A stretch of DNA of 64,000 nt from contig CP000066.1 of assembly GCA_000002445.1 (NCBI GenBank), positions 1,568,001-1,632,000 of the forward strand. Direction: 5' to 3'. How positions within the stretch are numbered: the stretch's first letter is position 1; each line of letters starts with the position of its first letter. Under the pieces are notes generated by a model. The model was not told where the DNA came from, did no database searches, and saw only the letters and a list, made by a program, of their open reading frames with translations. The translations under genes were made by a program, and so were the position numbers. The stretch is from Trypanosoma brucei (lineage: Eukaryota). Positions 12,494 through 39,473 of the stretch are shown here, in pieces.

Positions 12494-12527
<34 letters not shown>

Positions 12528-19472: not shown

Positions 19473-22400
19473 TCATCGTGAGCGAAACCATTATTAAGAA
19501 TGGTTTAGGTTATAAAATGGTTTAGCTAACTATTTTATTCGATCTACAGGGGGAGATATGTGTTCTTACTTTATTATGTAGGACTGCTTTTGGTGGTTAT
19601 CATGATTATGTTCTTTCAGTATGTAGGCTGCCGCTGGAACCCACACATTTAAGCTGATCATGCCTCCTATGGAAGGTTTTATGGGGGTAAAATACAGGGT
19701 GTTGTGGACTAGTTTTACCTCGAAAGGGGAATGTACATCAAGAATCCGGGGGCTGTCCTTCATATCTATTTGCTCCCTGTGTGCAACTCGTTTGCTGTGA
19801 AGAAGAGTGGGGCGTTTATTCACTATTTTGTTTTTTTCTTTGCGACAACGTACTCCGAGTACTAAGGATGGACATCCACTGAGAAGTTATACGCTGGCTG
19901 GTATATGCTTTTGGTGGAGTCTATGTATACCTTGGCGCATAGAGATGGCGAAGTTGGGAAGGTGAGCGCGTTGTGTTGTCTTTGGTAAGCTAGTATACTG
20001 CTGTAAAGCGAGTTTTAATGACGGGGGAGTATTTACGGTGCGGGTATTATGTTGCTTGGATTGCATTCTTAGGAAAATTTGGACGGAGAAGTGTTCAGTT
20101 GGGAAGATTATTACCACGAAATGGAGTGGCATTCGCGAGTGTGTGCAGGAAAATATATCCTCGTAGAAAGTGTGCTGATGGGACAGTACATTTTCGTGGG
20201 GAATATAAGGCTCTTTACCACAGTATTTTTGTTGCGGGGATAACTGGTTACTCACTGGCACCAAGTGCCGCCAATCTCAAGCTCATGTCGTTGTTGGTGT
20301 TGCCTCTTTCAGTGAGAGGCAACGGCACAGACGAAGGTACATCAGCGGGTAGTGTTGCACAGCGCATAGGTTAAGGGGAATTCATTTCGGTAAGGAATTC
20401 CGCTAAACACCGGCAGCTCGAAAATTACGCACCGCTAAAGTGATAGTTGAAGCTTCAACCGCCTAAAGTTACCGTTGGAAAACAAAAATGCAATATGTGC
20501 AACAGAGGTCTTGTTTGCACATGGAAATGGGCCTGTCTTACCGTTGAACTTTCCGGCGATTTTGGAGTCACACGGCTGCCAGCCCGTCAGGTGTGCAACC
20601 AAAAGGCAACCTCACTCTGAAGAATCCCACTGCCGCATTTGCAGGTGGTAAAACTGCAATGGATAGCGGTACGGAACCGACTTCAGAAGAACGAACTGCG
20701 AGGCATAACAGCGGGGGAACGGGCACCAAGGGAGAAAGAAGCAAGGTGGTTTTCCGTGCCGCAGGGTATGTCGCTCCAGGGAAACAGGTATCTAGTTCGA
20801 CTCCTGCAAACTCTCTTAACAGCGGCGCTTGTTCCTCGCCCCATATCACCACTGACCGAGGAGCAAGCATTTTCCACTCCTCATCATACCCAATCTATCA
20901 TACAACGAATCCGATTGTTATGTCCTTTTTATACCATATAAATATATCTTCTCTTTCAAAGCAGTAAAGTGCTGGAGGAGGTCAATACGGAAACATTTAT
21001 AATTATAAAAATTGTTTCTACGAATCATTTTTCTAGAGGAAGTGCATAGAGATGCCAAATTACCCTAACCCGAACCAATTGAAGAATGTTTGAATGTGCT
21101 GAAGCACTCTCTCAAAAGATGGAAGAGGAGGTACGACATTGCCCAAATAATACAACTCCGTGTTGAAAGTAGTGAATTGAAGTACAGGCACGGATCAACA
21201 TTAGCTCGCATCAGTTTTCACGCTACAAACTAAGTCTTTTAATTGGGTTAGTGCAGCAGCCGAGATAAGCGCTGAGGTTATCAACTTGATGGAAGTAGTG
21301 TCTGTCACAAACAAACCTTCGAGGTGCGGAGCAGAGGTCTTATCGGCACGTATATTACAAATTTCGGGGAGAAAGGCTTAGGGAAAAGTAAGATTATCGT
21401 ACAAACACCCGTCAGTTGGGGGTTCGTCAAGAAAATATAAGTCAGATAGATTATAAATTAGGAATCGGGATGTATACATTTTTTTACATGATAAATTTTG
21501 GAGCAGCGGAAGTAAAGGTTTCCATGGGTAGAAGATGGGGATGTGCACGGCTAAGGTGTTGGTGTTTTTGATACTGGCATCCAGGTAGCAAGTGTAAAGG
21601 GTGCTAATTGTGATGAGTTGAAGATTCTTCGTGGTTTCCTGAGGCCTGTTTGGGGGTATTTAAATGTGGTTGACGAAGGAAGCAAGGAACGCGTTACAGG
21701 CACTTGAAACCAAGGAATCGAGTCCTTACTGGGGCGATATCCCATGGCACCGATAGGTTGTAGAACAGAAAGCACACATTCAATCAGCGACGAATGCAGC
21801 ATTTGTTCCGTGTGCGAGGAAAAAGTGAGCAACGTACTTAAAATAAACCCCGAAAACCCTTTGTCAACACCCAGGACAAAGCAAAGCGACTTGAGCAACC
21901 ACAAAGAATTGACGAATTTGGTCGAACAAGCCTCTGAGCTGTACATGAAAAACTCACTGAAAGTCAGAGTGACGGCAGAAGATTTTCAAAAGGATGCAGA
22001 GGAAATACTCTACGGTATAGAAGACAAAAAAAAGTCCAAAAGGTATGGAACTAAGAAGGGAGCAGGCTTGCGGTAAAGAAGTATCAAGCTGAAACAACTA
22101 CTTTCGGCGTGCGCTAACTATAGACCTGATGTGCTTGTGCTTTCCCCCAGAACTACCTTTAGCTGCCGCGTTGTGTTGCGATAGGTGCAACATGGAACCA
22201 AACACCGCGACCTGGGACGTAGAAACCTCCACCAAGATAACCGATTTTATGATCGAAAAATGTGGAGATTGCCCGCTTCCATAAGTGAGTTTTGTGAAAA
22301 CTATGAAGAAAAACTTCGTGAAGCTAAATGATCTCGGAAAGTTTAGGAAGAAATCCAGAGGAAAGGCTTTCTGTGCTGTAGGTTGGGACAATAGGGAAGA

Positions 22401-24951: not shown

Positions 24952-25944
24952 ATGGAGAACAAATATTTAGTGTGGTGCATGTTTTTTTGTTTAACGGTTG
25001 TGGGGGGCAAAGCTAATGCAGTGAAAACAACGCTAAAGAAAGAAACGAATTGCCACACAACTGTTAAAGCACTGTTCAACAAACGTGAAAACTGTCATGA
25101 TCTGGCCTCCGATGCAACGAAAATAAATGAGGATGTTGACATCGGAACAGATGCAGATAGATGGACTGCTTGCACATGGTTAGAATATGATAAGAGGCGT
25201 ACGGAGACACAATGCATATTGAGGTTTAACAACACATATGGAGAGAAATTAGTATGCACCTACGAAACAAAGGGCAATCGCCAAGACCTAAGTTGCAAAC
25301 CAGAGGGTCGTTGCGAAGACGCTCGCGAGCGGTACCTTTTAGGGGAAGAAGGATGTCCGAAGCCTGCACCACGTGAAGAACCAAAAAGAAACAAAACCGA
25401 AAGGTGTCTTGATGAGGTTTATGGGTCATTCAGCGGTGACCAGGAGTGTGCGAAACTTAAAATAGGAAGCGAGGTCGCCGAGCAAATTATATTCAGGGAG
25501 AACGGAGATGACAAAACACCAGAATGTATAGAAGCAAGTGGCCCCCCAGAGTCGAAAGTGGTTGGAGAAGCATGCGTAATAAAGTTGCGAACCGAGCCAC
25601 ACCCATCAGAATATATTTGCAAAATGGAGGGTTCTGGTGAGGAAAGGAAAATAAAATGCACAAGAGAAACATCGAAAACAGTTCCTCAACCTACGACCAC
25701 AAGGAAGAGACGAGGCAGTACTGGATCCATGCGCAAAAGAAGTGACGACGGTGGTAACACTGAGGTCACCCTGAAAGAAGATAAAGACAAAACACAAGAT
25801 GAGGATGAAGGCCAAAAAGAAGAAAGAAAAGAAGAAAGCGGTGAAGAAACTGGTACAGCAAAAGCTCGAATCAAAAGCAAAACTTATTGGAAATCAAATA
25901 ATCCTATTATCATGCTTTTAACACTTTCGTTATTGTTGCTTTAA
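24952..25944 (+). CDS. Diverged leading member of the tandem surface-protein family (signal peptide, Cys-rich ectodomain, K/E-rich stalk, GPI-signal-like tail)
   Basis: 330 aa. It shares Cys spacing and motifs with the array genes (TQCILRFNN..CTYET, GEAC.IKLRT, ERKIKCT, WKSNNPIIMLLTLSLLLL), but the ectodomain is only about 40-50% identical. Its 3' flank is nearly identical to the flanks in the array. Confidence 0.7.
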   Translation: MENKYLVWCMFFCLTVVGGKANAVKTTLKKETNCHTTVKALFNKRENCHDLASDATKINEDVDIGTDADRWTACTWLEYDKRRTETQCILRFNNTYGEKLVCTYETKGNRQDLSCKPEGRCEDARERYLLGEEGCPKPAPREEPKRNKTERCLDEVYGSFSGDQECAKLKIGSEVAEQIIFRENGDDKTPECIEASGPPESKVVGEACVIKLRTEPHPSEYICKMEGSGEERKIKCTRETSKTVPQPTTTRKRRGSTGSMRKRSDDGGNTEVTLKEDKDKTQDEDEGQKEERKEESGEETGTAKARIKSKTYWKSNNPIIMLLTLSLLLL

Positions 25945-26389
25945 TACTGTTTAATAATAAACGGTAATGTAAACTGTTTGGAAGAAAGTATGCTTTTAAC
26001 GGAGAAGGGAAGTGAGTGTATCAAAACATTTTTCTTGTAAGACATACATTAAGGGAACATTTTTATGTTTTTTTTTTGTCACGCGTCACTGCTGTAAAAA
26101 AAACTTCTTGCGCTCAAGTTGTATCGAAAGTATTGAATTTTCAACGATGTTGTTCGGTGGGGAAGGTAAGGGGAATAGGATATATAGTTGTGTCGGGGAC
26201 GGCGTTCTGTTTGTTGAAAGGGGTAAAGAGAGGAAAAAACCCTACACCGGGTGAAAGTAACTGACTGATGAAGTTCGTTTGGATCGATAGACAAGTGGAA
26301 CTCGCCGCAAAAAGGTTGTAACAGCATTTAACCGGCACATGCGGCTTAGCGTTTTAGGTTGAGAAATGCACGTATAAAGGCACGGATGC

Positions 26390-26700
26390 TCAGGAAATAC
26401 CCTTATTTCTGATAACATAATTGGACGCTAAGCTAGAGAAGGCACAACACCAGATTCGAGAATACAACAGAAAAATGACGGGCGATGGCACCGACGAAGA
26501 GGAACAATTGAAGCGGGTCGCTGAAATCGATAACATCAATGCCCACGGCAGCCTCCTCTCGACGCGCGGACAAAACAAGAAAAAAAAATGCAGCTTCAGA
26601 AAAAAAAAAAAATGTTTCTTTGGGAAACCACTTGAAACTGTTGAGGAAAAGAGGGTTTGCCACGCCCAGCCGCTAATGATAATGTGAAATGGAAATTTAC
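26390..26700 (+). promoter_or_regulatory. Conserved ~300-nt intergenic element, a putative 3'UTR/processing regulatory element. It recurs after every array gene: 28268-28578, 30146-30390 (shortened) and 31961-32290
   Basis: The block starts about 450 nt after each stop codon and is near-identical between units. It contains an 88-codon ORF (MDAKLEKAQHQIREYNRK...) that is intact in three copies. In the copy before gene 3 the ORF is broken by a deletion, so selection is probably acting at RNA/DNA level rather than on a peptide. Confidence 0.3.
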
Positions 26701-26730
26701 AGTATCCATTTAACCTACAATATCATGATT

Positions 26731-26757
26731 CCTACACCTTTATCATTCTTCCTTTAG
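26731..26757 (+). promoter_or_regulatory. Polypyrimidine tract plus AG: probable trans-splice acceptor 11 nt upstream of the array-gene ATG. Equivalent sites are at 28609-28635, 30421-30447 and 32301-32327
   Basis: cctacacctttatcattcttcctttAG lies immediately before gcgaaaacaaaATG in every unit. This implies a very short 5'UTR. Confidence 0.45.
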
Positions 26758-26767
26758 CGAAAACAAA

Positions 26768-27829
26768 ATGAGGAAACAACATGTCATATACTACGTATTT
26801 TTCTGCTTAGGAGCCATAGGAAGCAGAGGAGAGACAGAACCAATAACAATACAAAAAGGAACGGAGTGCCACAAAGCATTGGAAACAGCGTTCACCACGC
26901 CCAAAAACTGTGAGAATGTAAGCACAGCGATAAGCGAAATGCCTGAAAATGTTAGCATTGAAACATTCCCGGGGGCATGGACCGTGTGTCAATTCATGGA
27001 AAACGAAAAAGAAAGCACAGTCACGCAATGCATTTTGAAGTTCGAAAACGCAGAGGGAAATCGAATAGCGTGCACCTACGAAACCGAGGGCGGACAAGGA
27101 AACGTAAGCTGCACACAGGAAGTGGATGCTCCGGTGGCTTATCATCCATACTGTGAGGGAGCCGAATACGATTATACTTATCATGACGAAAGCCACGGTC
27201 ATGGGAGCGGGGGCTATGAGCGGCGTTGTCCCGAGCCGGGTCCACGTCCTGCGCCACTGAATGAAGAAGCTCACAGGTGTGTTGCCGACGTCCTTGTTGC
27301 ATTTGGTGGTCACCATGAATGTGCAAAACTCTACGGCACAGATCCGGCACTCGATCCTGAAGATGTCATCTTCGGCGAGAAAGGAGATGACAAACCAAAA
27401 TGCACGGAGGCAGATCGACCCGAGGTGTCCACATTGGTTGGAGAAGCATGCGAGGTAAAATTGCGGACCAAACCAGAACCAGACGAATACTTGTGTAAGG
27501 TAGAAACCTCTAACGGTAAAAGAAAAATAAAGTGTACCCCCAAAACACCAAAAACAATTCCTCAACAAGCGGACACAGTAAAGAAACCAGATACCACTGA
27601 ATCCATGCAGAAAAAAGCTGACGATGGTGGTAAAACTGAGGTAACACCAGAAGTAAAAGATGGGCAAAAAGATGAAAAGGGTGGGAAAGAAAGGCAAGAA
27701 AAGCAAAAAATGGAAAATAATACTGGAAAAAGCAATGAAGCAGCGACAAACACTAAAACGCAGGCTTCTTCTTGGAAATCAAATAATCCTATTATCATGT
27801 TTTTAACACTTTCTTTATTGTTGCTTTAG
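26768..27829 (+). CDS. Tandem-array surface protein copy 2 (signal peptide, Cys-rich domain, K/E/T-rich stalk, GPI-signal-like C-terminus)
   Basis: 353 aa. Signal peptide MRKQHVIYYVFFCLGAIGSRG, more than 14 conserved Cys, and a stalk KKPDTTESMQKKADDGGKTEVTPEVKDGQKDEKGGKERQEKQ. The tail SSWKSNNPIIMFLTLSLLLL is a small-residue omega site followed by a hydrophobic segment. Confidence 0.75.
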   Translation: MRKQHVIYYVFFCLGAIGSRGETEPITIQKGTECHKALETAFTTPKNCENVSTAISEMPENVSIETFPGAWTVCQFMENEKESTVTQCILKFENAEGNRIACTYETEGGQGNVSCTQEVDAPVAYHPYCEGAEYDYTYHDESHGHGSGGYERRCPEPGPRPAPLNEEAHRCVADVLVAFGGHHECAKLYGTDPALDPEDVIFGEKGDDKPKCTEADRPEVSTLVGEACEVKLRTKPEPDEYLCKVETSNGKRKIKCTPKTPKTIPQQADTVKKPDTTESMQKKADDGGKTEVTPEVKDGQKDEKGGKERQEKQKMENNTGKSNEAATNTKTQASSWKSNNPIIMFLTLSLLLL

Positions 27830-28645
27830 TATCATTTAATAAACGGTAATGTAGACTGTTTTGAAGAAAGTATGCTTTTAACGGAGAAGGGAAGTGAGTG
27901 TATCAAAACATTTTTCTTGACAGACGTACATTAAGGGAACATTTTTATTGTTTACTTGCCATATTGCACTGCTAAAAAACTTCTCGTGCTGGAGTTGCGT
28001 GCGAAGTATTAGATTTCTTCACCGATTCTTTTTTGTAGCGAAGGTAAGGGGAATAGGATATGTAGTTGTGTCGGGGACGGCGTTCTGTTTGTTGAAAGGG
28101 ATAGCAGGAAGAGAAAACTCTACCCCGGGTGAAAGCAACTGACTTGTGCAGTTCGTTCGGATCGATAGACAGGTGGAAATCGCCGCAAAAAGGTTGTAAC
28201 AGCATTTGATCGGCACATGTGGTGTAGCGTTTTGGGTTGAGAAATGCACGCATAAAGGCACGGATGCTCAGGAAATACCCTTATTTCTGATAACATAATT
28301 GGACGCTAAGCTAGAGAAGGCACAACACCAGATTCGAGAATACAACAGAAAAATGACGGGCGATGGCACCGACGAAGAGGAACAATTGAAGCGGGTCGCT
28401 GAAATCGATAACATCAATGCCCACGGCAGCCTCCTCTCGACGCGCGGACAAAACAAGAAAAAAAAATGCAGCTTCAGAAAAAAAAAAAAATGTTTCTTTG
28501 GGAAACCACTTGAAACTGTTGAGGAAAAGAGGGTTTGCCACGCCCAGCCGCTAATGATAATGTGAAATGGAAATTTACAGTATCCATTTAACCTACAATA
28601 TCATGATTCCTACACCTTTATCATTCTTCCTTTAGCGAAAACAAA

Positions 28646-29707
28646 ATGAGGAAACAACATGTCATATACTACGTATTTTTCTGCTTAGGAGCCATAGGAA
28701 GCAGAGGAGAGACAGAACCAATAACAATACAAAAAGGAACGGAGTGCCACAAAGCATTGGAAACAGCGTTCACCACGCCCAAAAACTGTGAGAATGTAAG
28801 CACAGCGATAAGCGAAATGCCTGAAAATGTTAGCATTGAAACATTCCCGGGGGCATGGACCGTGTGCCAATTCATGGAAAACGAAAAAGAAAGCACAGTC
28901 ACGCAATGCATTTTGAAGTTCGAAAACGCAGAGGGAAATCGAATAGCGTGCACCTACGAAACCGAGGGCGGACAAGGAAACGTAAGCTGCACACAGGAAG
29001 TGGATGCTCCGGTGGCTTATCATCCATACTGTGAGGGAGCCGAATACGATTATACTTATCATGACGAAAGCCACGGTCATGGGAGCGGGGGCTATGAGCG
29101 GCGTTGTCCCGAGCCGGGTCCACGTCCTGCGCCACTGAATGAAGAAGCTCACAGGTGTGTTGCCGACGTCCTTGTTGCATTTGGTGGTCACCATGAATGT
29201 GCAAAACTCTACGGCACAGATCCGGCACTCGATCCTGAAGATGTCATCTTCGGCGAGAAAGGAGATGACAAACCAAAATGCACGGAGGCAGATCGACCCG
29301 AGGTGTCCACATTGGTTGGAGAAGCATGCGAGGTAAAATTGCGGACCAAACCAGAACCAGACGAATACTTGTGTAAGGTAGAAACCTCTAACGGTAAAAG
29401 AAAAATAAAGTGTACCCCCAAAACACCAAAAACAATTCCTCAACAAGCGGACACAGTAAAGAAACCAGATACCACTGAATCCATGCAGAAAAAAGCTGAC
29501 GATGGTGGTAAAACTGAGGTAACACCAGAAGTAAAAGATGGGCAAAAAGATGAAAAGGGTGGGAAAGAAAGGCAAGAAAAGCAAAAAATGGAAAATAATA
29601 CTGGAAAAAGCAATGAAGCAGCGACAAACACTAAAACGCAGGCTTCTTCTTGGAAATCAAATAATCCTATTATCATGTTTTTAACACTTTCTTTATTGTT
29701 GCTTTAG
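28646..29707 (+). CDS. Tandem-array surface protein copy 3 of the family (near-identical to copy at 26768)
   Basis: 353 aa. Differs from copy 2 by a single conservative change (T to A in ...HELT/AHGP on the antisense track, equivalent). The sense protein is identical on the track. Confidence 0.75.
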   Translation: MRKQHVIYYVFFCLGAIGSRGETEPITIQKGTECHKALETAFTTPKNCENVSTAISEMPENVSIETFPGAWTVCQFMENEKESTVTQCILKFENAEGNRIACTYETEGGQGNVSCTQEVDAPVAYHPYCEGAEYDYTYHDESHGHGSGGYERRCPEPGPRPAPLNEEAHRCVADVLVAFGGHHECAKLYGTDPALDPEDVIFGEKGDDKPKCTEADRPEVSTLVGEACEVKLRTKPEPDEYLCKVETSNGKRKIKCTPKTPKTIPQQADTVKKPDTTESMQKKADDGGKTEVTPEVKDGQKDEKGGKERQEKQKMENNTGKSNEAATNTKTQASSWKSNNPIIMFLTLSLLLL

Positions 29708-30457
29708 TATCATTTAATAAACGGTAATGTAGACTGTTTTGAAGAAAGTATGCTTTTAACGGAGAAGGGAAGTGAGTGTATCAAAACATTTTTCTTGACA
29801 GACGTACATTAAGGGAACATTTTTATTGTTTACTTGCCATATTGCACTGCTAAAAAACTTCTCGTGCTGGAGTTGCGTGCGAAGTATTAGATTTCTTCAC
29901 CGATTCTTTTTTGTAGCGAAGGTAAGGGGAATAGGATATGTAGTTGTGTCGGGGACGGCGTTCTGTTTGTTGAAAGGGATAGCAGGAAGAGAAAACTCTA
30001 CCCCGGGTGAAAGCAACTGACTTGTGCAGTTCGTTCGGATCGATAGACAGGTGGAAATCGCCGCAAAAAGGTTGTAACAGCATTTGATCGGCACATGTGG
30101 TGTAGCGTTTTGGGTTGAGAAATGCACGCATAAAGGCACGGATGCTCAGGAAATACCCTTATTTCTGATAACATAATTGTACGCTAAGCTAGAGAAGGCA
30201 CAACACCAGATTCGAGAATACAACAGAAAAGTGAAGACGGGTGATTTAAGCGGGTCACTGAAATCAAGATCATTAATACAGACGGCAGCATCAGTGGAGG
30301 GGGAAATATTTTTTTTAATACTTGAAACTGTTGAGGAAAAGAGGGTTTGCCACGCCCAGCCGCTAATGATAATGTGAAATGGAAATTTACAGTATCCATT
30401 TAACCTACAATATCATGATTCCTACACCTTTATCATTCTTCCTTTAGCGAAAACAAA

Positions 30458-31522
30458 ATGAGGAAACAACATGTCATATACTACGTATTTTTCTGCTTAG
30501 GAGCCATAGGAAGCAGAGGAGAGACAGAACCAATAACAATACAAAAAGGAACGGAGTGCCACAAAGCATTGGAAACAGCGTTCACCACGCCCAAAAACTG
30601 TGAGAATGTAAGCACAGCGATAAGCGAAATGCCTGAAAATGTTAGCATTGAAACATTCCCGGGGGCATGGACCGTGTGTCAATTCATGGAAAACGAAAAA
30701 GAAAGCACAGTCACGCAATGCATTTTGAAGTTCGAAAACGCAGAGGGAAATCGAATAGCGTGCACCTACGAAACCGAGGGCGGACAAGGAAACGTAAGCT
30801 GCACACAGGAAGTGGATGCTCCGGTGGCTTATCACCCACACTGTGGGGAACATGGAAGTGACCATGGTTATGATAACGGCTATGATGGTTATAATGGCGT
30901 GGCGTATGGTGAACTGGGTTGTCCCGAGCCTGGTCCACCTCCTGCCCAACCGAACGATGAAGCTCACAGGTGCATTGCCGACGTTTTCGCTGCATTTAGT
31001 GGCCACCTTCCATGTGCAAAATTCTACGGCACAGATCAGGCATTCGGTCCTAAGGAAGTCGTCTTCGGCGAGAACGGAAATGAAAAACCAGAATGTGCAG
31101 AAGGAAGCGAACCCCCGGAATCCAAGGTGGTTGGGGAAACATGTGAAGTAAAATTGCGGACAAAAAAACAACCAGAAGAATATGTATGTAAGGTAGAAAC
31201 CTCTAACGGTAAAAGAAAAATAAAGTGTACCCCCAAAACACCAAAAACAATTCCTCAACAAGCGGACACAGTAAAGAAACCAGATACCACTGAATCCATG
31301 CAGAAAAAAGCTGACGATGGTGGTAAAACTGAGGTAACACCAGAAGTAAAAGATGGGCAAAAAGATGAAAAGGGTGGGAAAGAAAGGCAAGAAAAGCAAA
31401 AAATGGAAAATAATACTGGAAAAAGCAATGAAGCAGCGACAAACACTAAAACGCAGGCTTCTTCTTGGAAATCAAATAATCCTATTATCATGTTTTTAAC
31501 ACTTTCTTTATTGTTGCTTTAG
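30458..31522 (+). CDS. Tandem-array surface protein, mosaic copy (central ~120 codons replaced)
   Basis: 354 aa. The first ~124 and last ~110 residues are identical to the other copies. The central segment (nt ~30828-31190; ...YHPHCGEHGSDHGYDNGYDGYNGVAYGELGCPEPGPPPAQPNDEAHRCIADVFAAF...EGSEPPESKVVGETCEVKLRTKKQPEEYVCKV) is divergent. It shares PPESKVVGE with the leading diverged gene at 24952. Confidence 0.75.
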   Translation: MRKQHVIYYVFFCLGAIGSRGETEPITIQKGTECHKALETAFTTPKNCENVSTAISEMPENVSIETFPGAWTVCQFMENEKESTVTQCILKFENAEGNRIACTYETEGGQGNVSCTQEVDAPVAYHPHCGEHGSDHGYDNGYDGYNGVAYGELGCPEPGPPPAQPNDEAHRCIADVFAAFSGHLPCAKFYGTDQAFGPKEVVFGENGNEKPECAEGSEPPESKVVGETCEVKLRTKKQPEEYVCKVETSNGKRKIKCTPKTPKTIPQQADTVKKPDTTESMQKKADDGGKTEVTPEVKDGQKDEKGGKERQEKQKMENNTGKSNEAATNTKTQASSWKSNNPIIMFLTLSLLLL

Positions 31523-32337
31523 TATCATTTAATAAACGGTAATGTAAACTGTTTGGAAGAAAGCATGCTTTTAACGGAGAAGGGAAGTGAGTGTATCAAA
31601 ACATTTTTCTTGACAGACGTACATTAAGGGAACATTTTTATTGTTTACTTGCCATATTGCACTGCTAAAAAACTTCTCGTGCTGGAGTTGCGTGCGAAGT
31701 ATTAGATTTCTTCACCGATTCTTTTTTGTAGCGAAGGTAAGGGGAATAGGATATGTAGTTGTGTCGGGGACGGCGTTCTGTTTGTTGAAAGGGATAGCAG
31801 GAAGAGAAAACTCTACCCCGGGTGAAAGCAACTGACTTGTGCAGTTCGTTCGGATCGATAGACAGGTGGAAATCGCCGCAAAAAGGTTGTAACAGCATTT
31901 GATCGGCACATGTGGTGTAGCGTTTTGGGTTGAGAAATGCACGCATAAAGGCACGGATGCTCAGGAAATACCCTTATTTCTGATAACATAATTGGACGCT
32001 AAGCTAGAGAAGGCACAACACCAGATTCGAGAATACAACAGAAAAATGACGGGCGATGGCACCGACGAAGAGGAACAATTGAAGCGGGTCGCTGAAATCG
32101 ATAACATCAATGCCCACGGCAGCCTCCTCTCGACGCGCGGACAAAACAAGAAAAAAAAATGCAGCTTCAGAAAAAAAAAAAATGTTTCTTTGGGAAACCA
32201 CTTGAAACTGTTGAGGAAAAGAGGGTTTGCCACGCCCAGCCGCTAATGATAATGTGAAATGGAAATTTACAGTATCCATTTAACCTACAATATCATGATT
32301 CCTACACCTTTATCATTCTTCCTTTAGCGAAAACAAA

Positions 32338-33399
32338 ATGAGGAAACAACATGTCATATACTACGTATTTTTCTGCTTAGGAGCCATAGGAAGCAGAGGA
32401 GAGACAGAACCAATAACAATACAAAAAGGAACGGAGTGCCACAAAGCATTGGAAACAGCGTTCACCACGCCCAAAAACTGTGAGAATGTAAGCACAGCGA
32501 TAAGCGAAATGCCTGAAAATGTTAGCATTGAAACATTCCCGGGGGCATGGACCGTGTGCCAATTCATGGAAAACGAAAAAGAAAGCACAGTCACGCAATG
32601 CATTTTGAAGTTCGAAAACGCAGAGGGAAATCGAATAGCGTGCACCTACGAAACCGAGGGCGGACAAGGAAACGTAAGCTGCACACAGGAAGTGGATGCT
32701 CCGGTGGCTTATCATCCATACTGTGAGGGAGCCGAATACGATTATACTTATCATGACGAAAGCCACGGTCATGGGAGCGGGGGCTATGAGCGGCGTTGTC
32801 CCGAGCCGGGTCCACGTCCTGCGCCACTGAATGAAGAAGCTCACAGGTGTGTTGCCGACGTCCTTGTTGCATTTGGTGGTCACCATGAATGTGCAAAACT
32901 CTACGGCACAGATCCGGCACTCGATCCTGAAGATGTCATCTTCGGCGAGAAAGGAGATGACAAACCAAAATGCACGGAGGCAGATCGACCCGAGGTGTCC
33001 ACATTGGTTGGAGAAGCATGCGAGGTAAAATTGCGGACCAAACCAGAACCAGACGAATACTTGTGTAAGGTAGAAACCTCTAACGGTAAAAGAAAAATAA
33101 AGTGTACCCCCAAAACACCAAAAACAATTCCTCAACAAGCGGACACAGTAAAGAAACCAGATACCACTGAATCCATGCAGAAAAAAGCTGACGATGGTGG
33201 TAAAACTGAGGTAACACCAGAAGTAAAAGATGGGCAAAAAGATGAAAAGGGTGGGAAAGAAAGGCAAGAAAAGCAAAAAATGGAAAATAATACTGGAAAA
33301 AGCAATGAAGCAGCGACAAACACTAAAACGCAGGCTTCTTCTTGGAAATCAAATAATCCTATTATCATGTTTTTAACACTTTCTTTATTGTTGCTTTAG
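32338..33399 (+). CDS. Tandem-array surface protein, last copy
   Basis: 353 aa, identical in translation to the copy at 28646. Confidence 0.75.
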   Translation: MRKQHVIYYVFFCLGAIGSRGETEPITIQKGTECHKALETAFTTPKNCENVSTAISEMPENVSIETFPGAWTVCQFMENEKESTVTQCILKFENAEGNRIACTYETEGGQGNVSCTQEVDAPVAYHPYCEGAEYDYTYHDESHGHGSGGYERRCPEPGPRPAPLNEEAHRCVADVLVAFGGHHECAKLYGTDPALDPEDVIFGEKGDDKPKCTEADRPEVSTLVGEACEVKLRTKPEPDEYLCKVETSNGKRKIKCTPKTPKTIPQQADTVKKPDTTESMQKKADDGGKTEVTPEVKDGQKDEKGGKERQEKQKMENNTGKSNEAATNTKTQASSWKSNNPIIMFLTLSLLLL

Positions 33400-33939
33400 T
33401 ATCATTTAATAAACGGTAATGTAAACTGTTTGGAAGAAAGCATGCTTTTAACGGAGAAGGGAAGTGAGTGTATCAAAACATTTTTCTTGACAGACGTACA
33501 TTAAGGGAACATTTTTATTGTTTACTTGCCATATTGCACTGCTAAAAAACTTCTCGTGCTGGAGTTGCGTGCGAAGTATTAGATTTCTTCACCGATTCTT
33601 TTTTGTAGCGAAGGTAAGGGGAATAGGATATGTAGTTGTGTCGGGGACGGCGTTCTGTTTGCTGGAAGTGGCAAAGGGAGGAAAAAACAAACAAACTTGT
33701 CAGATGGGAGTGGCTTTCAGGAAAACCTGTACAGTTGAAACTGGGGAAGGGAAAGTTACGGAAGGATAAAACAAATTGTGTAATCGAATTCGTCGCTGAT
33801 GATAAAACAAACGAACGGAGTTCACCACCCTGAAACCGTAGCTGCGTCTTCCTCCGTCACATACGACACAACAATGTAAGCCTAATGTTGCTGGTATAAG
33901 GAAACGCATTGTTGCGCAGGAGACGCCCACGGCCATGGC

Positions 33940-34130
33940 AGTTTAATTGGACGCTAAGCCAGCGAAAGAACTATGCCAAACTCGAGAGCACGACAGTGAT
34001 GGCTGGTGGCGCTCACGAAAATGTGTGATGGCAGGAACTCGCTGAGTTCAAGATCGTCAATGCCAACGGCAGCATTCCCTCGACACACGGAAGAAATAAG
34101 CAAAAAAAGAGATGCTGTACACAAGCTATA
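33940..34130 (+). repeat. Diverged relic of the conserved intergenic element, downstream of the array end
   Basis: ttaattggacgctaagccagcgaaag...atcgtcaatgccaacggcagcattccctcgacacacgg aligns at about 70% with taattggacgctaagctagagaagg...atcaacatcaatgcccacggcagcctcctctcgacgcgcgg from the array units. No CDS follows it. Confidence 0.5.
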
Positions 34131-35663
34131 TGCCAAAGCCGAACTCAGCCATTGTTGTCATGACGCCAAGCGGGAAAGAGAGCCAACGGCAACTTGCAAA
34201 TGCAGCGAAATAAGGATCGTTGAGAAACGACTTGGTGTGGACACCATGGGCGAAAGTTCACAGGCGCAGGAAATACCGGCGGTATATTCGGTGACGAGGC
34301 CTATGGTAAAAACCGTCACGCTATCCTAGCGCAGGTATTGGGGTGATTACGACGCGGGTGAGGGAAATGGGAAGAGGTGCAAAATGTCAGGAAATTCTTG
34401 AGAGCGTGCGAATTCTGCAAAGGTAAAAAGGACAGCAGTCGTTGACATCGGGAACAGAAGGAAGACGCAGCTTTTAACAGAATGCCGGAAGGCGCGAGCA
34501 CAGCCAAACAAATGGCAAGACGAGCTGAGAAGGCTACTGGCCACACTCTGAAATGGAAAGCCGCAGCGAGGGTGGGGGGAAACGCGCAGGTTCAGAGAGT
34601 TTTACCGGAAGAAGTCGAAAAGATGGCGAAACCTTCAGGAGTTAAAAATGTTTGGAAAAGGACAAAGCGGAGAAAATATCAGTAGTCGCCGGGAGAAAAT
34701 GCAGTGGCTGTCTTCGGACTGGTTTAGTTCGCGTCGCGACAACGACACCTCATATATAAAATTTCCTGAAAATAATGACGATGACGGCGAAAAACTCTTT
34801 TAAAACTCTTTTTTTCACAATTCCCCATTATTTTCATCTATTCCACATAACCTGTAGACGACCATGACTTGAGGTGAAAACCAGTTACACATGGGACGTT
34901 CTCGCGTCATTCCTCGTACCGGTTATTTCCATCATGTACCGCGAGGGCCATTGCACAGCGCATCATCTTCCGTTGACAGATGTTGTAGTTGGATTCCGTG
35001 TCCGGCTGTTTTGAAACGTTACGTCGGCCACCGTATGCCAGATTCCTCCTTTGTTATTGTTTTCGTTTGTGTAAAAACGCCGATACAGATGCAATTAGCA
35101 GCTCCAGTGTGACAATTGGAACAACCGATCGTATTTCGTACTTGCTTGTTTGTTTTTTCTGCGAACCTTTCAACGCATCAATCCCATCCTTTGCCAATCT
35201 CCACGCTTATGGACCCTTAAGGGGTCGTGCTATATCAATCTTCCAACACCCGGTCATCACTGTGGATTCCGCCTCCGCCTCTGATGATAACGTTCCGTGC
35301 AAAATGTGGCATTTACCCTTTTCTCGCGCAGTTATTTGCTTAGGTGATCCTTTTCGGCCGGTAGAGTTCCCCGGAATTCCGCTGCGACTCACCTGAGATC
35401 AGACCTGTATTCTGCTTAACACCACCGATCTCAACATTGAGAGCGCTCTAAAGATACCGAAAGAATCATGTTCGCACGTGCGTGGAGGATCACACCGATG
35501 TTTCCCACCATCCTGAAAACCGACGGTTTCGCCGCTTTCCCTTCTCCCCCGGGCAGGCCGTTACTGTCCGACTGCCGCAATCCTTAAGACGGGATGCGCG
35601 CGAACATTTAATCTCCCCGGCTCTCGAAGATGCACCGGATTCAAACATCGCAATGAGGTGTGT

Positions 35664-36330
35664 TCAACACTCTGCCATGGGAGTTTGCTCATTAAACGAA
35701 CTGGTCAGAGTGCTTCCCCAATTCACAGACAACTCGGATAAATGCACAGTTTCATTAAACGTGTAGCAGAAAAAATGACTAATGCTTGGCATGCTTCCGT
35801 CCAGCATGAAAGCTGCGTACCTTCTATCTCCCTTGATCATGCCGAAGGGTCCGTCAGTTGGTTTCAAATATTAGCACTGCCATGCCGCAGAAATACGCAA
35901 CAATAGGCAACTCTTCCACATCACAATGCAATAACTTGTAGAGGATGAAAGAGCCAAAATTCTGAGATTTGCCAAACCCCGGGTTACCAATGGTAAGGTA
36001 TGCTCGTGGAAAATAAGGACATTCCGGTATAACACGTTGTGTACGCCATAACTCAATTCCACTTCTTACAACATTCCATACGCGGAACTCTTCTCTACGG
36101 ATGAATATGTTTTTGTTACTTCCGTCGGTAAACTTGGCTTATTATCACCTCATTTGAGATGTTAGAACCAATGCTTCAGCTTCTTCCATGCGCTCTGGTT
36201 TCTTCTCAACAGCTTCCTCAATTTAAGGGACAACATTAAGTTCTTCATTCTTCCACATTACATTGCCACCACGCGTTCCATCAACAAACTCCATCCCGAG
36301 CAGTTGAGTTTTGTTGTCCATTATAATGTG
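35664..36330 (-). pseudogene. Fragmented P-loop NTPase-like pseudogene (possibly retrotransposon-hot-spot-protein-like)
   Basis: The minus-strand translation is broken across at least 3 frames. One frame reads ...PRAYLTIGNPGFGKSQNFGSFILYKLLHCDVEELPIVAYFCG, which contains a Walker-A GxxGxGKS followed by a hydrophobic stretch and an acidic residue. The adjacent ORFs 35871-36062(-) and 35664-35867(-) continue in shifted frames. Confidence 0.25.
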
Positions 36331-39300
36331 ACTTCACTTTGCATTGCATACGGAGCCATATAAACTGAAAACATTATCACCTCTTGCTTCACGGTCTCTC
36401 AGACGCTTTTCTCCCAGAATAAGTGTTTTTTTGTCCTGAAGCAAAATGTTGAATATTGTTCTTGATTAAAATATCTGCTTTACTTTTATAACTGATTCGG
36501 CTTCTTAGTGTTTCTTTGTAAAGGATACAGAAGCTTTATTACAAATGGATTCCTGTACTAAAGCACACACATGGTTACTCAGATAGAACAGTTATAAATC
36601 TCAAATAATTTTAATAAGCTTTCCTCACACATTTTTCTATCCAATGAAATTATTTCCACACTGCTCTACTGCAGCATTTTGTGGCCATTAAACAAAAAAA
36701 AATAGTTTTGGCGCTGCCTCAGGTATTCGCTGACATTTCCCCTCTTTTCAACGCATGTTGATAAACGCATGCCTCAACACTGTCACGCCTTAGTGTTATT
36801 AAATCAATTCTCATGCCTCTAAGGAATGCACGGCATGAGATCCTATTTTCAAATATATTAATTGATGCACGACATTTGGTATTTTATTCATTTCATTTGG
36901 TCGTCGCTTTCCCCCATTCTCTGAGTTCGCAAACACCACTGAGCTAATTCCGTGCAAATGTACACATGTAACTTCAAGGTAATATATGTTTATCACTGTT
37001 GTGTTCTTTCGTATTTCTTTTGTTGACTGCTGGTGCCCAGTAAGTTCCTATCATAAAATATGTATCATCTTACAAGACACAACAATAATGGTCATGATAA
37101 AGGTTCTGAATTCCCTGTATTTAATGTTGGACGCTGATGTGAGGAATGGATTCAAAAACAAACAAATAAACAAACTGAAGCCTCCTGTTCGTAAATGAAG
37201 GGTTTGTGTTCACATCGTTGGAGAGTGTCAGCACCCGGAGATATACTTTTCTCGCTTTGCAGTGTATGTTTCACTACAGTTTCCGTTCGTTCCGCCATAT
37301 GGGAAAATAAATTGTTTTGGATATTTGAGTCTGCGCCGCCTTCCCCACTCAAAGTAACTTGCATAATGAGTATTATTGTGGTAAATTTTGAGTTCTCATG
37401 AGGATTTCACACTTCACACGCGCAAAAAAATTGTTACGACGACTCGCTTACTGTTGCACACATGGAAATGGTGGCTGCGATGGAAGCTTCCCTTAATTTG
37501 TCTCATTTTCGTGAGAGTTGAGTTTTAAGCAACATTGTGCCTCCTAAACCTCGATACGCTTTTGAAAAATGAGGTTAGAAAACAGACTCACTATTTGATA
37601 CAGCAAGTAAGAGAACTTGGCATTTAATAATTATTATTACTGAACACACATTCATATGTTAATTTTTTTCTATCACCATTAGGAACGTAACCATCGCACG
37701 TTAAAGAACCACCAATACGCAAATATTTCCATACGCCACTTCACTGCCTTCAAAGCGCTGTCCAAATGGTTTTGAATATAAGTGCAATACAAAAATGGCA
37801 TTTCCCTCTTGATTCTGGCAGTTTCAAAGTGATAGCTGTGCCTTGCACCACGTTTAGGAGTGGCAAAGCAACCACCTGTGGTACCCTCCGGAAGAACTGT
37901 GTTGAAGCGGAAAAAAAAAAAGCATCGCTTTACAGTGTTGTACACAATACATCCGCCATCGGCCAACTACTGCCATCATAGCAATCCCATGTACGCATCG
38001 CTTTGGATTCCGCAGAAATATCTCCGTTTTTTTTTTCGGTGGGAAACAGTAACATCCAATAACAAGGTTACTGACAAAAGTAAACCTTTAAAAATATATA
38101 TACCACCCAAAGTAAGTCTATTTCACCATTTCCTTACCTGCGTCTTGTCGTTGGAAACCACTTGTCAGAAGAACAACGTGTATACCTTGTCAATTTTGAG
38201 GAACGGACGAACACCACGCAGGACTAAAGAGTTCAAAGGGGGAAAACTATCACATGGCAATGTAAGTTCCACCGCGATTCAGTCACTTTCTCTCCAACAC
38301 CATCAAACACCGAAATCCACAAATGCTGCGCCGGAGCTGCTTTTTAAAGGAAAGCGAAGTATTTCCTCTCACCGCTAACACGATGATCACTAAAAACTGA
38401 CCACCCTAAAAGCAGATAATGGGTTTAAACTTCCACATGAAGAAAAAAACAATATTCAATTCCTGTTTTCTATGACAACCAAGCACTGTTGGAACAAGAA
38501 GGGATACAGTTAACCCCGGAAATAAATAACAGATCATAGCATATTTTCCACTTCCCCCTTAATTCAGTCGCATAACTACTGTTATCATACTTCCCGCTTA
38601 AAAACACGGGAGTTTTAACATCGTTTTCAGAAGTTATCCGTTTATGCTTTAATCAAATGGGGTTCGTTTATATGGTTGAAAAAATAAATAAGCATAGAAA
38701 ATACACACATATGTGTCCTTTTTAATAAGTTGCGTTAGCTTCATAAGTCAGACCACCGTCGGAATATCGCTCTGACAGCTCCTTTCTTCGCAATTGCCTG
38801 GCTATGATTCTTTTCTCCGTTCAATTTTAGGTTATCCACAAATATATATTTTTTGGTTTTCATTTCACTCAATCATTAATTCATCAGTATCAAAATCATT
38901 TATATTATTTTGCGCTCTTCGCACCCAGCTAAATATATATATATTTGTTACCGATAATATACCACACTTCGTTGTTGAAAAACTTAGTCTCTTCCCCATA
39001 TTTTAAGCTTCAGATTTCGTTAGGTGTCTTTGCAATATCTTTCACACGCGTGCGATACAGTCATTGTTATAACTTTAAAAAGGACAGGAGGAAATGACTC
39101 ATCCGCTACAGTTTGTTCAGTAGCATTGAGGTTAAGTTTCATCGCCTCCCTTATAATCGATTCTTCAATACCTTTTACTGTTTCTTGTCCCGTATATGTT
39201 TATTTTTTAATGTTGATGCTTTCTGCTTCATACGCTTGGCAATTCTGATTCGGTTTTTATGTATTCCAATTGTTCCCTTAACTTTTTGTAAGTTCTTTAT

Positions 39301-39473
39301 TACTGGATTTAAGCCCTTCGATCATATTATCGTATGTCGTTTCGGTTATCCATGTACACTGTCACTGACAAAGGCAGTTACAGGTTGGTTAATGTTTCCC
39401 AGTCAAACCCACTGCGCGTAGTAACCACCTAATTCGATAGTTGTAGGCTAATATATGCTTGTGAATAATAGTG

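What the first reader, a model, noticed from the sequence alone, without database searches (positions are those of the whole stretch)
30146..31190. Mosaic array member: patchwork conversion tracts inside an otherwise homogenised unit
Copy 3 (30458-31522) is base-identical to its neighbours for the first ~370 nt and the last ~330 nt of the CDS. Its central ~360 nt (30828-31190) encodes a different sequence that retains the Cys positions but changes the surface loops: a G/Y/D-rich insert HGSDHGYDNGYDGYNGVAYG replaces EGAEYDYTYHDESHGHGSGGYERR. It also shares the PPESKVVGE motif with the diverged leading gene.

The upstream conserved element of this same unit (30146-30390) carries a private ~70-bp deletion. 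This looks like segmental gene conversion between lineages. That is the kind of mosaicism seen in antigen families, here occurring in a small chromosome-internal array.
Basis: seen in the sequence. Interest (0 to 1): 0.65.

Follow-up and report, generated by a model that had tools for sequence, protein, structure and literature searches.

The report
Chimeric copy in trypanosome surface-gene array
One of five tandem copies of a Trypanosoma brucei-only surface-protein gene is a real patchwork: it is identical to its neighbours except for two short blocks from an old sister lineage, an ordinary by-product of tandem copies overwriting each other.

Summary
The window is T. b. brucei TREU927 chromosome 3. 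The array is Tb927.3.5690-.5730, called "Fam6": a T. brucei-specific, predicted GPI-anchored, Cys-rich family transcribed mainly in bloodstream forms.

Unit 3 (CDS 30458-31522) is base-identical to the other A-type units except in two sharply bounded islands:
- 30180-30319, in the spacer: 33 substitutions and a net loss of 66 bp.
- 30835-31186, in the CDS: 94 substitutions plus 3 nt, 73% identity.

Polarising each island with an outgroup splits the differences evenly between the two lineages (30 vs 29 in the CDS, 9 vs 7 in the spacer). The islands therefore belong to an old sister lineage "B" (dS about 0.5), not to local hypermutation. They were not copied from the leading gene either: the shared PPESKVVGE motif differs at 5 synonymous sites.

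The likeliest mechanism is partial gene conversion during concerted evolution, with the islands as relics of a resident B paralogue. Import from an unseen ectopic donor is not excluded. The "antigen-family" reading is not supported: the family has only five genes, dN/dS is 0.55, and there is a single chimera.

The array is not deep inside the chromosome. It ends a transcription unit at the core/subtelomere edge. The array and its two isoforms are already published, and chimeric tandem copies are well known in T. brucei. Interest is low to moderate.

The parts
24952..25944 (+). U0, the diverged leading gene (XP_844159). Inferred to be Tb927.3.5690. It is the only copy with an orthologue in T. 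b. gambiense.
   Evidence: It is about 59% nt and 40-44% aa identical to the A copies.
25883..26373 (+). Older homogenisation stratum. The GPI-signal end of U0 and its 3' flank are 77-94% identical to the A units, against 55-70% in the rest of the CDS. Identity is 100% from 26374 onward.
   Evidence: Sliding-window identity; difference list.
26768..27829 (+). U1, an A-type copy (353 aa). Inferred to be Tb927.3.5700.
28646..29707 (+). U2, an A-type copy (353 aa). Inferred to be Tb927.3.5710.
30180..30319 (+). Island 1: a B-lineage block in the spacer upstream of U3. It has 33 substitutions and deletions of 19, 43 and 4 nt relative to the A spacers. The dense part is 30231-30319.
   Evidence: Outgroup polarisation gives 9 U3-derived against 7 A-derived changes, and shows the deletions arose on the U3 lineage.
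30320..30834 (+). Homogenised segment between the islands: the end of the spacer, the signal peptide and Cys module 1. It is 100% identical to U1, including the T at 30679.
30427..30447 (+). The only strong polypyrimidine tract in the spacer, followed by an AG dinucleotide 11 nt before the ATG. This is the likely trans-splice acceptor (inferred).
30458..31522 (+). U3, the chimeric copy (354 aa, XP_844162). Inferred to be Tb927.3.5720.
30835..31186 (+). Island 2: a B-lineage block in the CDS (codons 126-243). It covers the Cys129-Cys155 Y/D/G/H-rich loop and Cys module 2 up to the codon before its fifth Cys. It is 73% identical to A and 60% to U0. The six Cys codons inside the block are all kept.
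31547..31564 (+). Three SNPs in the flank after U3. They match the flank after U4 and differ from the flanks after U1 and U2.
32338..33399 (+). U4, an A-type copy and the last unit. Inferred to be Tb927.3.5730.
33400..33668 (+). Terminal partial spacer, 98% identical to the internal spacers. The repeat ends here. In T. b. gambiense, the flank downstream of the U0 orthologue continues straight into the sequence beyond this point.
33944..34108 (+). Old, diverged copy of the spacer element, 69% identical to 28296-28465. Used as the outgroup for island 1.

Best explanation
Unit 3 is a real chimeric gene in the Fam6 tandem array of T. b. brucei TREU927. The array is evolving in concert: homologous recombination between neighbouring units (gene conversion or unequal exchange) keeps rewriting them to one sequence, the A type.

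Unit 3 descends from an old sister paralogue, the B type, which split from A at a synonymous divergence of about 0.5. A-type sequence copied from its neighbours has overwritten most of it, in at least two events with different donors. The 5' part matches U1. The 3' part and its flank match U4.

Two patches escaped: an indel-rich block in the spacer, and the block encoding the inter-module loop plus most of Cys module 2. The likely reason is that 24-27% mismatch and indels block heteroduplex formation, so conversion tracts stop at their edges.

The result is a second protein isoform. It has the same signal peptide, module 1, stalk and GPI signal, but a different loop and module 2. The upstream gene probably also gets an altered distal 3'UTR.

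What is shown: the chimera, the sharp boundaries, the age and independence of the B lineage, and exchange among units. What is inferred: the direction (relic rather than import), the mismatch barrier, and the UTR assignment.
For: - All differences fall in two islands, and the longest identical run is 472 nt against a permutation maximum of 145.
- U0-versus-A divergence is roughly uniform along the CDS (59-67%). Uneven constraint therefore cannot explain the 100/73/100% pattern.
- In island 2, polarised by U0, 77 sites are shared by A and U3, 30 are private to U3 and 29 are private to A. The branch-specific counts are 9 synonymous and 21 non-synonymous changes on the U3 branch, against 10 and 19 on the A branch.
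- In island 1, polarised by the distal copy at 33944-34108, 9 changes are U3-derived and 7 are A-derived. Both islands therefore come from one old, independently evolving lineage. That lineage stayed under purifying selection: all six Cys codons inside island 2 are kept, the frame is open, and dN/dS is 0.55.
- Both islands lie colinear within a single duplication unit, with similar divergence (24% and 27%).
- Exchange among units is visible directly. The CDS SNP (T, C, T, C in U1-U4) and the flank SNPs (GTT, GTT, AGC, AGC) occur in all four combinations.
- An earlier partial overwrite of a diverged neighbour is preserved at 25883-26373.
- No B-type donor was found in the 64-kb window or among annotated proteins.
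- The literature reports chimeric copies in 21 of 47 T. brucei tandem arrays (PMC1855330).
Against: - The direction is not proven. No full-length B gene has been seen anywhere, so 'relic' and 'import' both rest on an unseen ancestor or donor.
- The relic model needs at least three overwritten segments. An import model needs two tracts, or one long tract with a restored middle.
- Unannotated or unassembled subtelomeric copies, and the homologous chromosome, could not be searched.
- The mismatch-barrier step rests on general knowledge of homologous recombination in T. brucei. It was not tested here.
- Read-level confirmation of the assembly was not possible.
Confidence: 0.55

Rival explanations
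1. Ectopic or allelic import. Unit 3 was an ordinary, recently amplified A copy. It then received B-type sequence from a donor outside the window, such as a subtelomeric pseudogene or the homologous chromosome. This happened either as two short conversion tracts, or as one tract of about 1 kb (30180-31186) whose middle 515 nt was later restored.
For: - The array sits at the core/subtelomere edge, among VSG-related and ESAG sequences. From established knowledge, ectopic conversion is common in such regions.
- This model needs fewer events than erosion from both sides.
- Ectopic conversion into a tandem array has been documented in T. brucei (array Tb105a in PMC1855330).
- The A copies are so uniform that a very recent amplification is plausible.
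Against: - No donor was found in the window.
- No B-type protein exists in a 5.8-billion-sequence collection or among 1.84 billion representative proteins.
- Two independent imports landing in the same unit, colinear and equally diverged, would be a coincidence.
- The A-type parts of unit 3 match two different neighbours. The recipient would then already have been a recombinant.
Confidence: 0.25
2. Selection-maintained second isoform. The B-type loop and module 2 persist because an array carrying two ectodomain variants is advantageous, for ligand range or immune evasion. Conversions that erase the B island are removed by selection.
For: - Island 2 runs from just before the C129-C155 loop to the codon before the fifth Cys of module 2.
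- The B lineage stayed under purifying selection with all Cys codons intact.
- Jackson 2013 Table S1 reports the family as predicted surface-exposed and more abundantly transcribed in bloodstream forms (PMC3605285).
Against: - A non-coding island of similar divergence persists alongside it. Selection on the protein cannot explain that.
- dN/dS is 0.55, and 0.58 in the loop, which gives no sign of diversifying selection.
- The whole A/B block is absent from T. b. gambiense and T. evansi, and the gambiense U0 orthologue is frameshifted. The family looks dispensable (PMC2854126; PMC4288722).
Confidence: 0.1
3. Assembly artefact. The consensus for a collapsed or mis-ordered 1.88-kb repeat was stitched together from reads of different copies or haplotypes, producing a chimera that does not exist in the genome.
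For: - The units are 100% identical over hundreds of bases, and copy number in such arrays can be arbitrary in Sanger-era assemblies, as PMC2854126 states.
- No independent assembly or reads could be examined.
Against: - From general knowledge, each island (140 and 352 nt) is shorter than a Sanger read, so single reads should span both junctions.
- Reads that are 27% diverged would not co-assemble with A-type reads.
- The chimeric CDS is a clean open frame with all Cys kept.
- Jackson et al. 2010 counted two brucei-unique isoforms in this array and state that variation among duplicates can be assessed accurately (PMC2854126).
Confidence: 0.05
4. In-situ accelerated divergence. Unit 3 diverged locally from an A copy, through relaxed constraint or error-prone repair, with no second lineage involved.
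For: The differences cluster in a surface-loop region and in a non-coding block.
Against: - Outgroup polarisation puts half of the differences on the A branch: 29 against 30 in the CDS and 7 against 9 in the spacer. That is impossible if U3 had recently diverged from an A template.
- dS of 0.52 next to segments with zero differences is incompatible with any local mutation rate.
Confidence: 0.02

Closest known systems
Chimeric gene copies from partial ('allelic') gene conversion in T. brucei tandem arrays (Jackson 2007, BMC Evol Biol 7:54, PMC1855330)
   Same: - Same genome and the same class of polycistronic tandem array.
- The same signature: segments of one copy identical to neighbours, next to segments with a different history. 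Tracts often span UTRs as well as CDS.
- Edge copies are more diverged than internal ones.
   Different: - That survey listed this array (no. 20, Tb927.3.5690, 5 copies) but recorded no conversion event for it.
- A likely reason is that the second parent (B) is missing. The tree ((A,U3),U0) never changes topology, and only branch lengths change, so triplet and topology tests would be blind to it. That is my inference.
Fam1 array, Tb927.6.1310-.1390, on chromosome 6 (Jackson 2010 and 2013; PMC2854126, PMC3605285)
   Same: - A T. brucei-specific array of five predicted GPI-anchored genes beside a strand-switch region.
- A divergent 5'-most copy that is the only one present in T. b. gambiense.
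- The extra copies are also absent from T. evansi (PMC4288722).
   Different: - Fam1 is derived from b-type VSG. Fam6 has no detectable relatives at all.
- Fam1 copies differ by 0.1-3.2%. Fam6 shows an all-or-nothing 0% / 27% mosaic.
Segmental gene conversion that builds mosaic VSGs (from established knowledge)
   Same: Short conversion tracts between diverged paralogues create new combinations in the ectodomain of a GPI-anchored surface protein, in the same organism and close to subtelomeric DNA.
   Different: - Mosaic VSGs are assembled somatically during infection, from an archive of hundreds to thousands of donors, into an expression site, under strong immune selection.
- Here there are five germline genes, one fixed chimera, no donor archive and dN/dS of 0.55.
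Islands of divergence in duplicated genes undergoing conversion (for example human RHD/RHCE and the opsin genes; theory by Teshima and Innan; recalled from general knowledge, not checked here)
   Same: Paralogues are homogenised along most of their length, while sharply bounded diverged blocks persist.
   Different: In those cases the island is usually attributed to selection on a functional difference. Here a non-coding island persists as well, which points to a heterology barrier or to recency.

Membership tests
Fam6 of the African-trypanosome cell-surface phylome (Tb927.3.5690-.5730) | Identity with the published locus: five tandem genes on TREU927 chromosome 3, downstream of SPT16, the glycosyltransferase and the VSG-related gene. 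| tested here: met
   - The proteins are 100% identical to XP_844159-XP_844163 on a 1,653,225-bp record.
- The neighbours match published gene identities: Tb927.3.5660 is a glycosyltransferase and Tb927.3.5680 is VSG-related (PMC2771046).
- The array is named in PMC4288722 and in PMC3605285 Table S1.
- The mapping of individual units to gene IDs is inferred from gene order.
Fam6 of the African-trypanosome cell-surface phylome (Tb927.3.5690-.5730) | Specific to T. brucei, with no similarity to known proteins. | tested here: met
   - No Pfam family was matched.
- An exhaustive profile search of 1.84 billion representative proteins returned only the two clusters of this array.
Fam6 of the African-trypanosome cell-surface phylome (Tb927.3.5690-.5730) | Signal peptide plus GPI-anchor signal. 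| tested here: inconclusive
   - The hydrophobic N terminus (VIYYVFFCLGAIG) and C terminus (NPIIMFLTLSLLLL) are visible in the translations.
- No predictor was run here. Jackson 2013 Table S1 scores both SP and GPI as 'y'.
Fam6 of the African-trypanosome cell-surface phylome (Tb927.3.5690-.5730) | Adjacent to a strand-switch region. | tested here: inconclusive
   - GC skew reverses from about 34 kb.
- The next annotated protein gene found is on the minus strand (39474-40361, ESAG-like).
- No transcription data were examined.
Chimeric tandem duplicate produced by partial gene conversion | Adjacent segments of one copy have significantly different histories, with sharp breakpoints. | tested here: met
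   0% divergence next to 24-27% divergence, with a permutation test and outgroup polarisation.
Chimeric tandem duplicate produced by partial gene conversion | Both parental sequences can be identified. | tested here: not met
   The A parent is the set of neighbouring units. No B parent was found in the window or in protein databases.
Chimeric tandem duplicate produced by partial gene conversion | Single reads span the breakpoints, excluding mis-assembly. | not testable with these tools
   No read data are available. Exact-protein look-ups in other assemblies returned nothing.
Antigenic-variation-type mosaic gene family (VSG-like) | A large archive of diverged donor copies. | tested here: not met
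   There are five genes, with no further copies in the window or in any database searched.
Antigenic-variation-type mosaic gene family (VSG-like) | Diversifying selection on the exchanged segments. | tested here: not met
   dN/dS is 0.55 across the island and 0.58 in the loop.
Antigenic-variation-type mosaic gene family (VSG-like) | Many different mosaics among members or strains. | tested here: inconclusive
   - One chimera among four units in this strain.
- T. b. gambiense lacks the A/B units altogether (PMC2854126), and so does T. evansi (PMC4288722).
- The annotated T. equiperdum proteome contributed no Fam6 match.
- Other T. b. brucei strains could not be examined.

The most novel reading that the evidence does not exclude
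The B-type loop and module 2 may be a functionally distinct ectodomain variant that selection protects from homogenisation. T. b. brucei TREU927 would then express two Fam6 isoforms on a common scaffold in bloodstream forms. The A/B genes would be ancient paralogues (dS 0.5-1.1) that were lost from T. b. gambiense and T. evansi, rather than recent brucei-specific duplications. That would make their presence or absence a candidate host-range or virulence polymorphism.
Probability: 0.1. Interest if true: 0.55.

Novelty: new member of a known kind. Interest (0 to 1): 0.25.

Why it matters
It is a clean, well-bounded example of concerted evolution caught halfway in a parasite surface-gene array: 0% divergence directly next to 27% divergence.

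It shows why standard recombination scans can miss such cases. When one parent is missing the tree topology never changes, so only branch lengths give the chimera away.

It also qualifies a published reading. The extra copies are not fast-evolving products of a very recent duplication. They are old lineages with high synonymous divergence, so their absence from T. b. gambiense and T. evansi more likely reflects loss or a presence/absence polymorphism.

Beyond that it is an ordinary instance of a well-documented process, in a family of unknown function.

Tried and rejected
- **Pfam scan of U0, UA and U3.** Nothing scored above threshold.
- **Homologue searches.** The word-indexed search and the exhaustive profile search found only the array's own proteins and the gambiense orthologue.
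- **Structure prediction.** AlphaFold2 on the three-sequence alignment gave a mean pLDDT of 36 and pTM of 0.21. The model is unusable, so no fold search was run. Whether the variable segment forms 'surface loops' remains untested.
- **Exact-protein look-ups in other assemblies.** UA, U3 and U0 are not on record.
- **T. equiperdum locus.** It was reached through the ESAG-like neighbour. It is colinear with window 49810-33539 at 88% identity, but it breaks at the end of the repeat and holds no Fam6 gene. It gave no comparative information on the chimera.
- **Search for a B donor in the window.** blastn and tblastn found none.
- **Conversion from U0 as the source of the island.** Rejected: 60% identity, and synonymous differences inside the shared motif.
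- **Uneven selective constraint as the cause of the 100/73/100% pattern.** Rejected, because U0-versus-A divergence is roughly uniform along the CDS.
- **The 88-aa TTG-initiated ORF in each spacer.** Not treated as a gene. It is broken in unit 3 and frameshifted in unit 4.
- **Tandem Repeats Finder.** It does not list the array, because the 1.88-kb period exceeds its 500-nt limit.
- **tRNA and Rfam scans.** Both were empty.
- **Surface proteome paper PMC4587319.** It does not mention these genes in its text or in the supplements held.
Full report
**Where we are.** The three protein types encoded in the array are 100% identical to "hypothetical protein, conserved" entries XP_844159-XP_844163 of Trypanosoma brucei brucei TREU927. 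They lie on a 1,653,225-bp record, which I identify from memory as chromosome 3.

The gene order in the window is as follows:
- SPT16 (735-3803)
- enoyl-CoA hydratase
- an NF-X1 zinc-finger protein
- a protein kinase
- a 388-aa ORF with no Pfam match (12707-13873), inferred from gene order to be the glycosyltransferase Tb927.3.5660 (PMC2771046)
- a VSG-related gene (18000-19472)
- the five-gene array (24952-33399)
- a GC-skew reversal
- an ESAG-like gene on the minus strand (39474-40361)
- a VSG fragment (58206-59306)
- ESAG1 (60735-61709)

The literature names the array Tb927.3.5690-.5730 (PMC4288722). Three earlier papers describe it:
- Jackson 2007 lists it as array no. 20 (PMC1855330).
[quoted passage not shown] It gives 5 copies, a 1803-bp unit and 2 brucei-unique isoforms (PMC2854126).
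- The cell-surface phylome calls it Fam6. It scores the family as signal peptide yes, GPI yes, 5 copies in T. brucei and none in T. congolense or T. vivax. Transcript signals are 6280, 8311 and 9500 in bloodstream forms against 2404 and 582 in procyclic forms (PMC3605285 Table S1).

**Checking the observation.** I aligned the units and then U2 against U3 pairwise. Units U1 (CDS 26768-27829), U2 (28646-29707) and U4 (32338-33399) are essentially identical. U3 (30458-31522) differs from them only in these places:
- Island 1, 30180-30319: 33 substitutions and 66 gap columns (deletions of 19, 43 and 4 nt). The dense part is 30231-30319.
- Island 2, 30835-31186: 94 substitutions and a 3-nt insertion, 26.9% divergence.
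- One synonymous SNP at 30679, shared with U1.

Between the islands lie 515 identical bases. After island 2, the last 336 nt of the CDS are identical. The longest identical run is 472 nt, against a mean of 73 and a maximum of 145 in 2000 permutations. The repeat finder independently gives 79% identity for 30910-31209 and 100% for the other copies. The peptide statements in the finding are all correct. The one correction is that the "private deletion" is really a second diverged island.

**What the islands are.** I compared three sequences: U0, the A type (U1) and U3.
- In the 5' and 3' parts of the CDS, U3 is identical to A. Both are 59-67% identical to U0.
- In island 2, U3 is 73.2% identical to A, U3 is 59.8% identical to U0, and A is 60.1% identical to U0.
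- Polarised by U0, 77 variable sites are shared by A and U3, 30 are private to U3 and 29 are private to A.
- The branch-specific changes are 9 synonymous and 21 non-synonymous on the U3 branch, against 10 and 19 on the A branch.

The island is therefore a sister lineage of A, which I call B. It has evolved for the same length of time and under the same regime as A. Across the island, dS is 0.52, dN is 0.29 and dN/dS is 0.55. All six Cys codons inside the island are kept.

This rules out in-situ hypermutation of a recent A copy. It also rules out U0 as the donor. The shared PPESKVVGE motif is encoded as CCC CCA GAG TCG AAA GTG GTT GGA GAA in U0 and as CCC CCG GAA TCC AAG GTG GTT GGG GAA in U3. 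That is five synonymous differences in 27 nt. The motif is an ancestral state that the A lineage changed.

U0-versus-A divergence is roughly uniform along the CDS. Uneven constraint therefore cannot produce the 100/73/100% profile.

For island 1 I found a natural outgroup. An old copy of the same spacer element lies downstream of the array, at 33944-34108, and is 69% identical to 28296-28465. It retains the sequence that U3 lacks, so the deletions arose on the U3 lineage. Substitutions split 9 U3-derived against 7 A-derived. Both islands thus have the same character and similar divergence (24% and 27%). They lie colinear within one duplication unit.

**Evidence that units exchange sequence.**
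- The synonymous CDS SNP (26989, 28867, 30679, 32559) reads T, C, T, C in U1-U4.
- Three SNPs just after the stop codons read GTT, GTT, AGC, AGC.

All four combinations occur. That requires recombination or conversion between the two sites, which are about 870 nt apart. The A-type 5' part of U3 matches U1, and its 3' part and flank match U4.

There is also an older stratum. From about 25883 (the GPI-signal end of U0) to 26373, U0's unit is 77-94% identical to the A units, against 55-70% in the rest of the CDS and about 35-40% upstream. From 26374 onward identity is 100%. Partial overwriting of a diverged neighbour has therefore happened at this locus more than once.

**Comparison with other Trypanozoon genomes.**
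- *T. b. gambiense DAL972* (locus L001). It has only the U0 orthologue (Tbg972.3.6170). This is 97.3% identical, but it carries 1-bp and 4-bp deletions that break the frame. Its U0-type 3' flank then runs directly into the sequence found distal to U4 (window 33668 onward). Jackson et al. report that the extra copies are also absent from the gambiense read library (PMC2854126).
- *T. evansi STIB805.* It lacks them as well (PMC4288722).
- *T. equiperdum.* A segment is colinear with window 49810-33539 at 88% identity. It ends at the repeat boundary without a Fam6 gene.

dS is about 1.1 between U0 and A and about 0.5 between A and B. The U0 orthologues differ by only 2.7%. The A and B lineages are therefore far older than the subspecies. 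Their absence elsewhere is better read as loss or a presence/absence polymorphism than as a very recent brucei-specific duplication followed by rapid divergence.

**The protein.** The family has no Pfam match. It has no relative among 1.84 billion representative proteins beyond its own two clusters. AlphaFold2 on the three available sequences failed, with pLDDT 36.

The 14 Cys of the ectodomain are invariant. Their spacing suggests two six-Cys modules, with gaps of 14, 26, 14, 14, 13 and of 14, 27, 16, 15, 13 residues. The modules are joined by a Cys129-Cys155 loop. A profile-profile alignment puts all six Cys in register, but only weakly (E = 0.012), so this is suggestive and not shown.

Island 2 covers the loop and module 2 up to the codon before its fifth Cys. 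The loop is 24 aa long in A, 25 in B and 13 in U0, and is rich in Y, D, G and H.

**Likely consequence of island 1.** The only strong polypyrimidine tract in each spacer sits 12-31 nt before the ATG and is followed by an AG (30427-30447). From what is known of coupled trans-splicing and polyadenylation in trypanosomes, the upstream gene's poly(A) site should fall roughly 100-150 nt further upstream. That is at or near island 1. The island therefore probably alters the distal 3'UTR of U2, not the expression signals of U3. This is inference. No transcript data were examined.

**Mechanism and direction.** The class of mechanism is homologous recombination between tandem units during concerted evolution, which produces a chimeric copy. 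It is well supported, and I put it at about 0.85 regardless of direction.

On direction, I favour the islands being relics of a resident B paralogue that its A neighbours have overwritten (0.55). The reasons are:
- The donors for the A parts are present, and exchange among them is demonstrable.
- The two A parts of U3 come from different neighbours.
- The same kind of partial overwrite is preserved at the U0/A border.
- The two islands are colinear and equally diverged.
- No B donor exists in anything I could search.

High mismatch and indels would make exactly these segments refractory to heteroduplex formation. That accounts for a non-coding island surviving alongside a coding one without invoking selection.

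Import from an unseen subtelomeric or allelic donor remains possible (0.25). An assembly chimera is unlikely but untested (0.05).

**Relation to what is known.** Jackson (2007) found chimeric copies in 21 of 47 T. brucei arrays, but recorded no event for this one. A probable reason is that the tree ((A,U3),U0) never changes topology because the B parent is missing.

The resemblance to antigen-family mosaicism is superficial. The family has five genes, one fixed chimera, no donor archive and no diversifying selection. The array is not deep in the chromosome core. It lies at the end of a transcription unit on the core/subtelomere boundary.

**Verdict.** This is a real and neatly resolved chimera in an already catalogued array. 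It is a new instance of a known process, of low-to-moderate interest.

Noticed in passing
window 18137-21883: A 3.7-kb segment holding most of the VSG-related gene (ORF 18000-19472, Pfam VSG_B, E = 4e-71) has no counterpart in T. b. gambiense DAL972. There, about 250 bp of other sequence takes its place.
   Followed up: partly
window 11396-35359 versus L001: Identity to T. b. gambiense falls stepwise towards the array: 95.6%, 94.1%, 93.6%, then 90.7%. From memory, this is much lower than the roughly 99% usually quoted between the subspecies. The gambiense chromosome-3 record ends at window position 35359 or so.
   Followed up: no
L001 10001-10962 (Tbg972.3.6170): The only Fam6 gene in T. b. 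gambiense carries a 1-bp and a 4-bp deletion relative to U0. It reads as a frameshifted pseudogene, and NCBI labels it 'LOW QUALITY PROTEIN'. This could be real decay or sequencing error.
   Followed up: partly
window 25883-26373: There is an older homogenisation stratum between the leading gene's unit and the A units. Identity jumps from 55-70% to 77-94% at the GPI-signal codons and through the 3' flank, then reaches 100% at 26374.
   Followed up: yes
window 33944-34108: A degenerate copy of the spacer element (69% identical to 28296-28465) lies about 550 nt beyond the last unit, with no recognisable CDS after it. It may be a remnant of how the repeat unit was first formed.
   Followed up: partly
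window 26807-27706, 28685-29584, 30497-31399 and 32377-33276 (minus strand): Antisense ORFs of 299-300 aa, aligned codon-for-codon with the sense frame, run through each A/B copy, including the diverged island. U0 has nothing comparable. Given the Leu and Ser codon content, the chance of this is about 0.01. It is probably a composition effect of the purine-rich sense strand.
   Followed up: partly
window 26421-26687, 28299-28565 and 31992-32246: An 84-88-aa TTG-initiated ORF sits in the spacers. It is destroyed by island 1 in unit 3 and frameshifted by a 1-nt change in an A-run (32170) in unit 4, so it is not a gene.
   Followed up: yes
window 33539-49810 versus L002 (T. equiperdum CM010674.1): The 16 kb downstream of the array, including an ESAG-like gene (39474-40361, minus strand), is colinear at only 88% identity with a segment near the end of a T. 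equiperdum chromosome-3 scaffold. Homology stops exactly at the repeat boundary, which suggests a recombination-prone junction.
   Followed up: partly
window 10881-12528: A cluster of A-rich and T-rich low-complexity repeats and a (TGT)n run lies in the intergenic region after the kinase gene. The region has a low GC content of 0.355-0.371.
   Followed up: no
window 30458-31522 (protein residues 34-257): The Cys spacing suggests that the ectodomain is an internal duplication of a six-Cys module. The hhalign alignment puts all six Cys in register, with E = 0.012 and 24% identity.
   Followed up: partly
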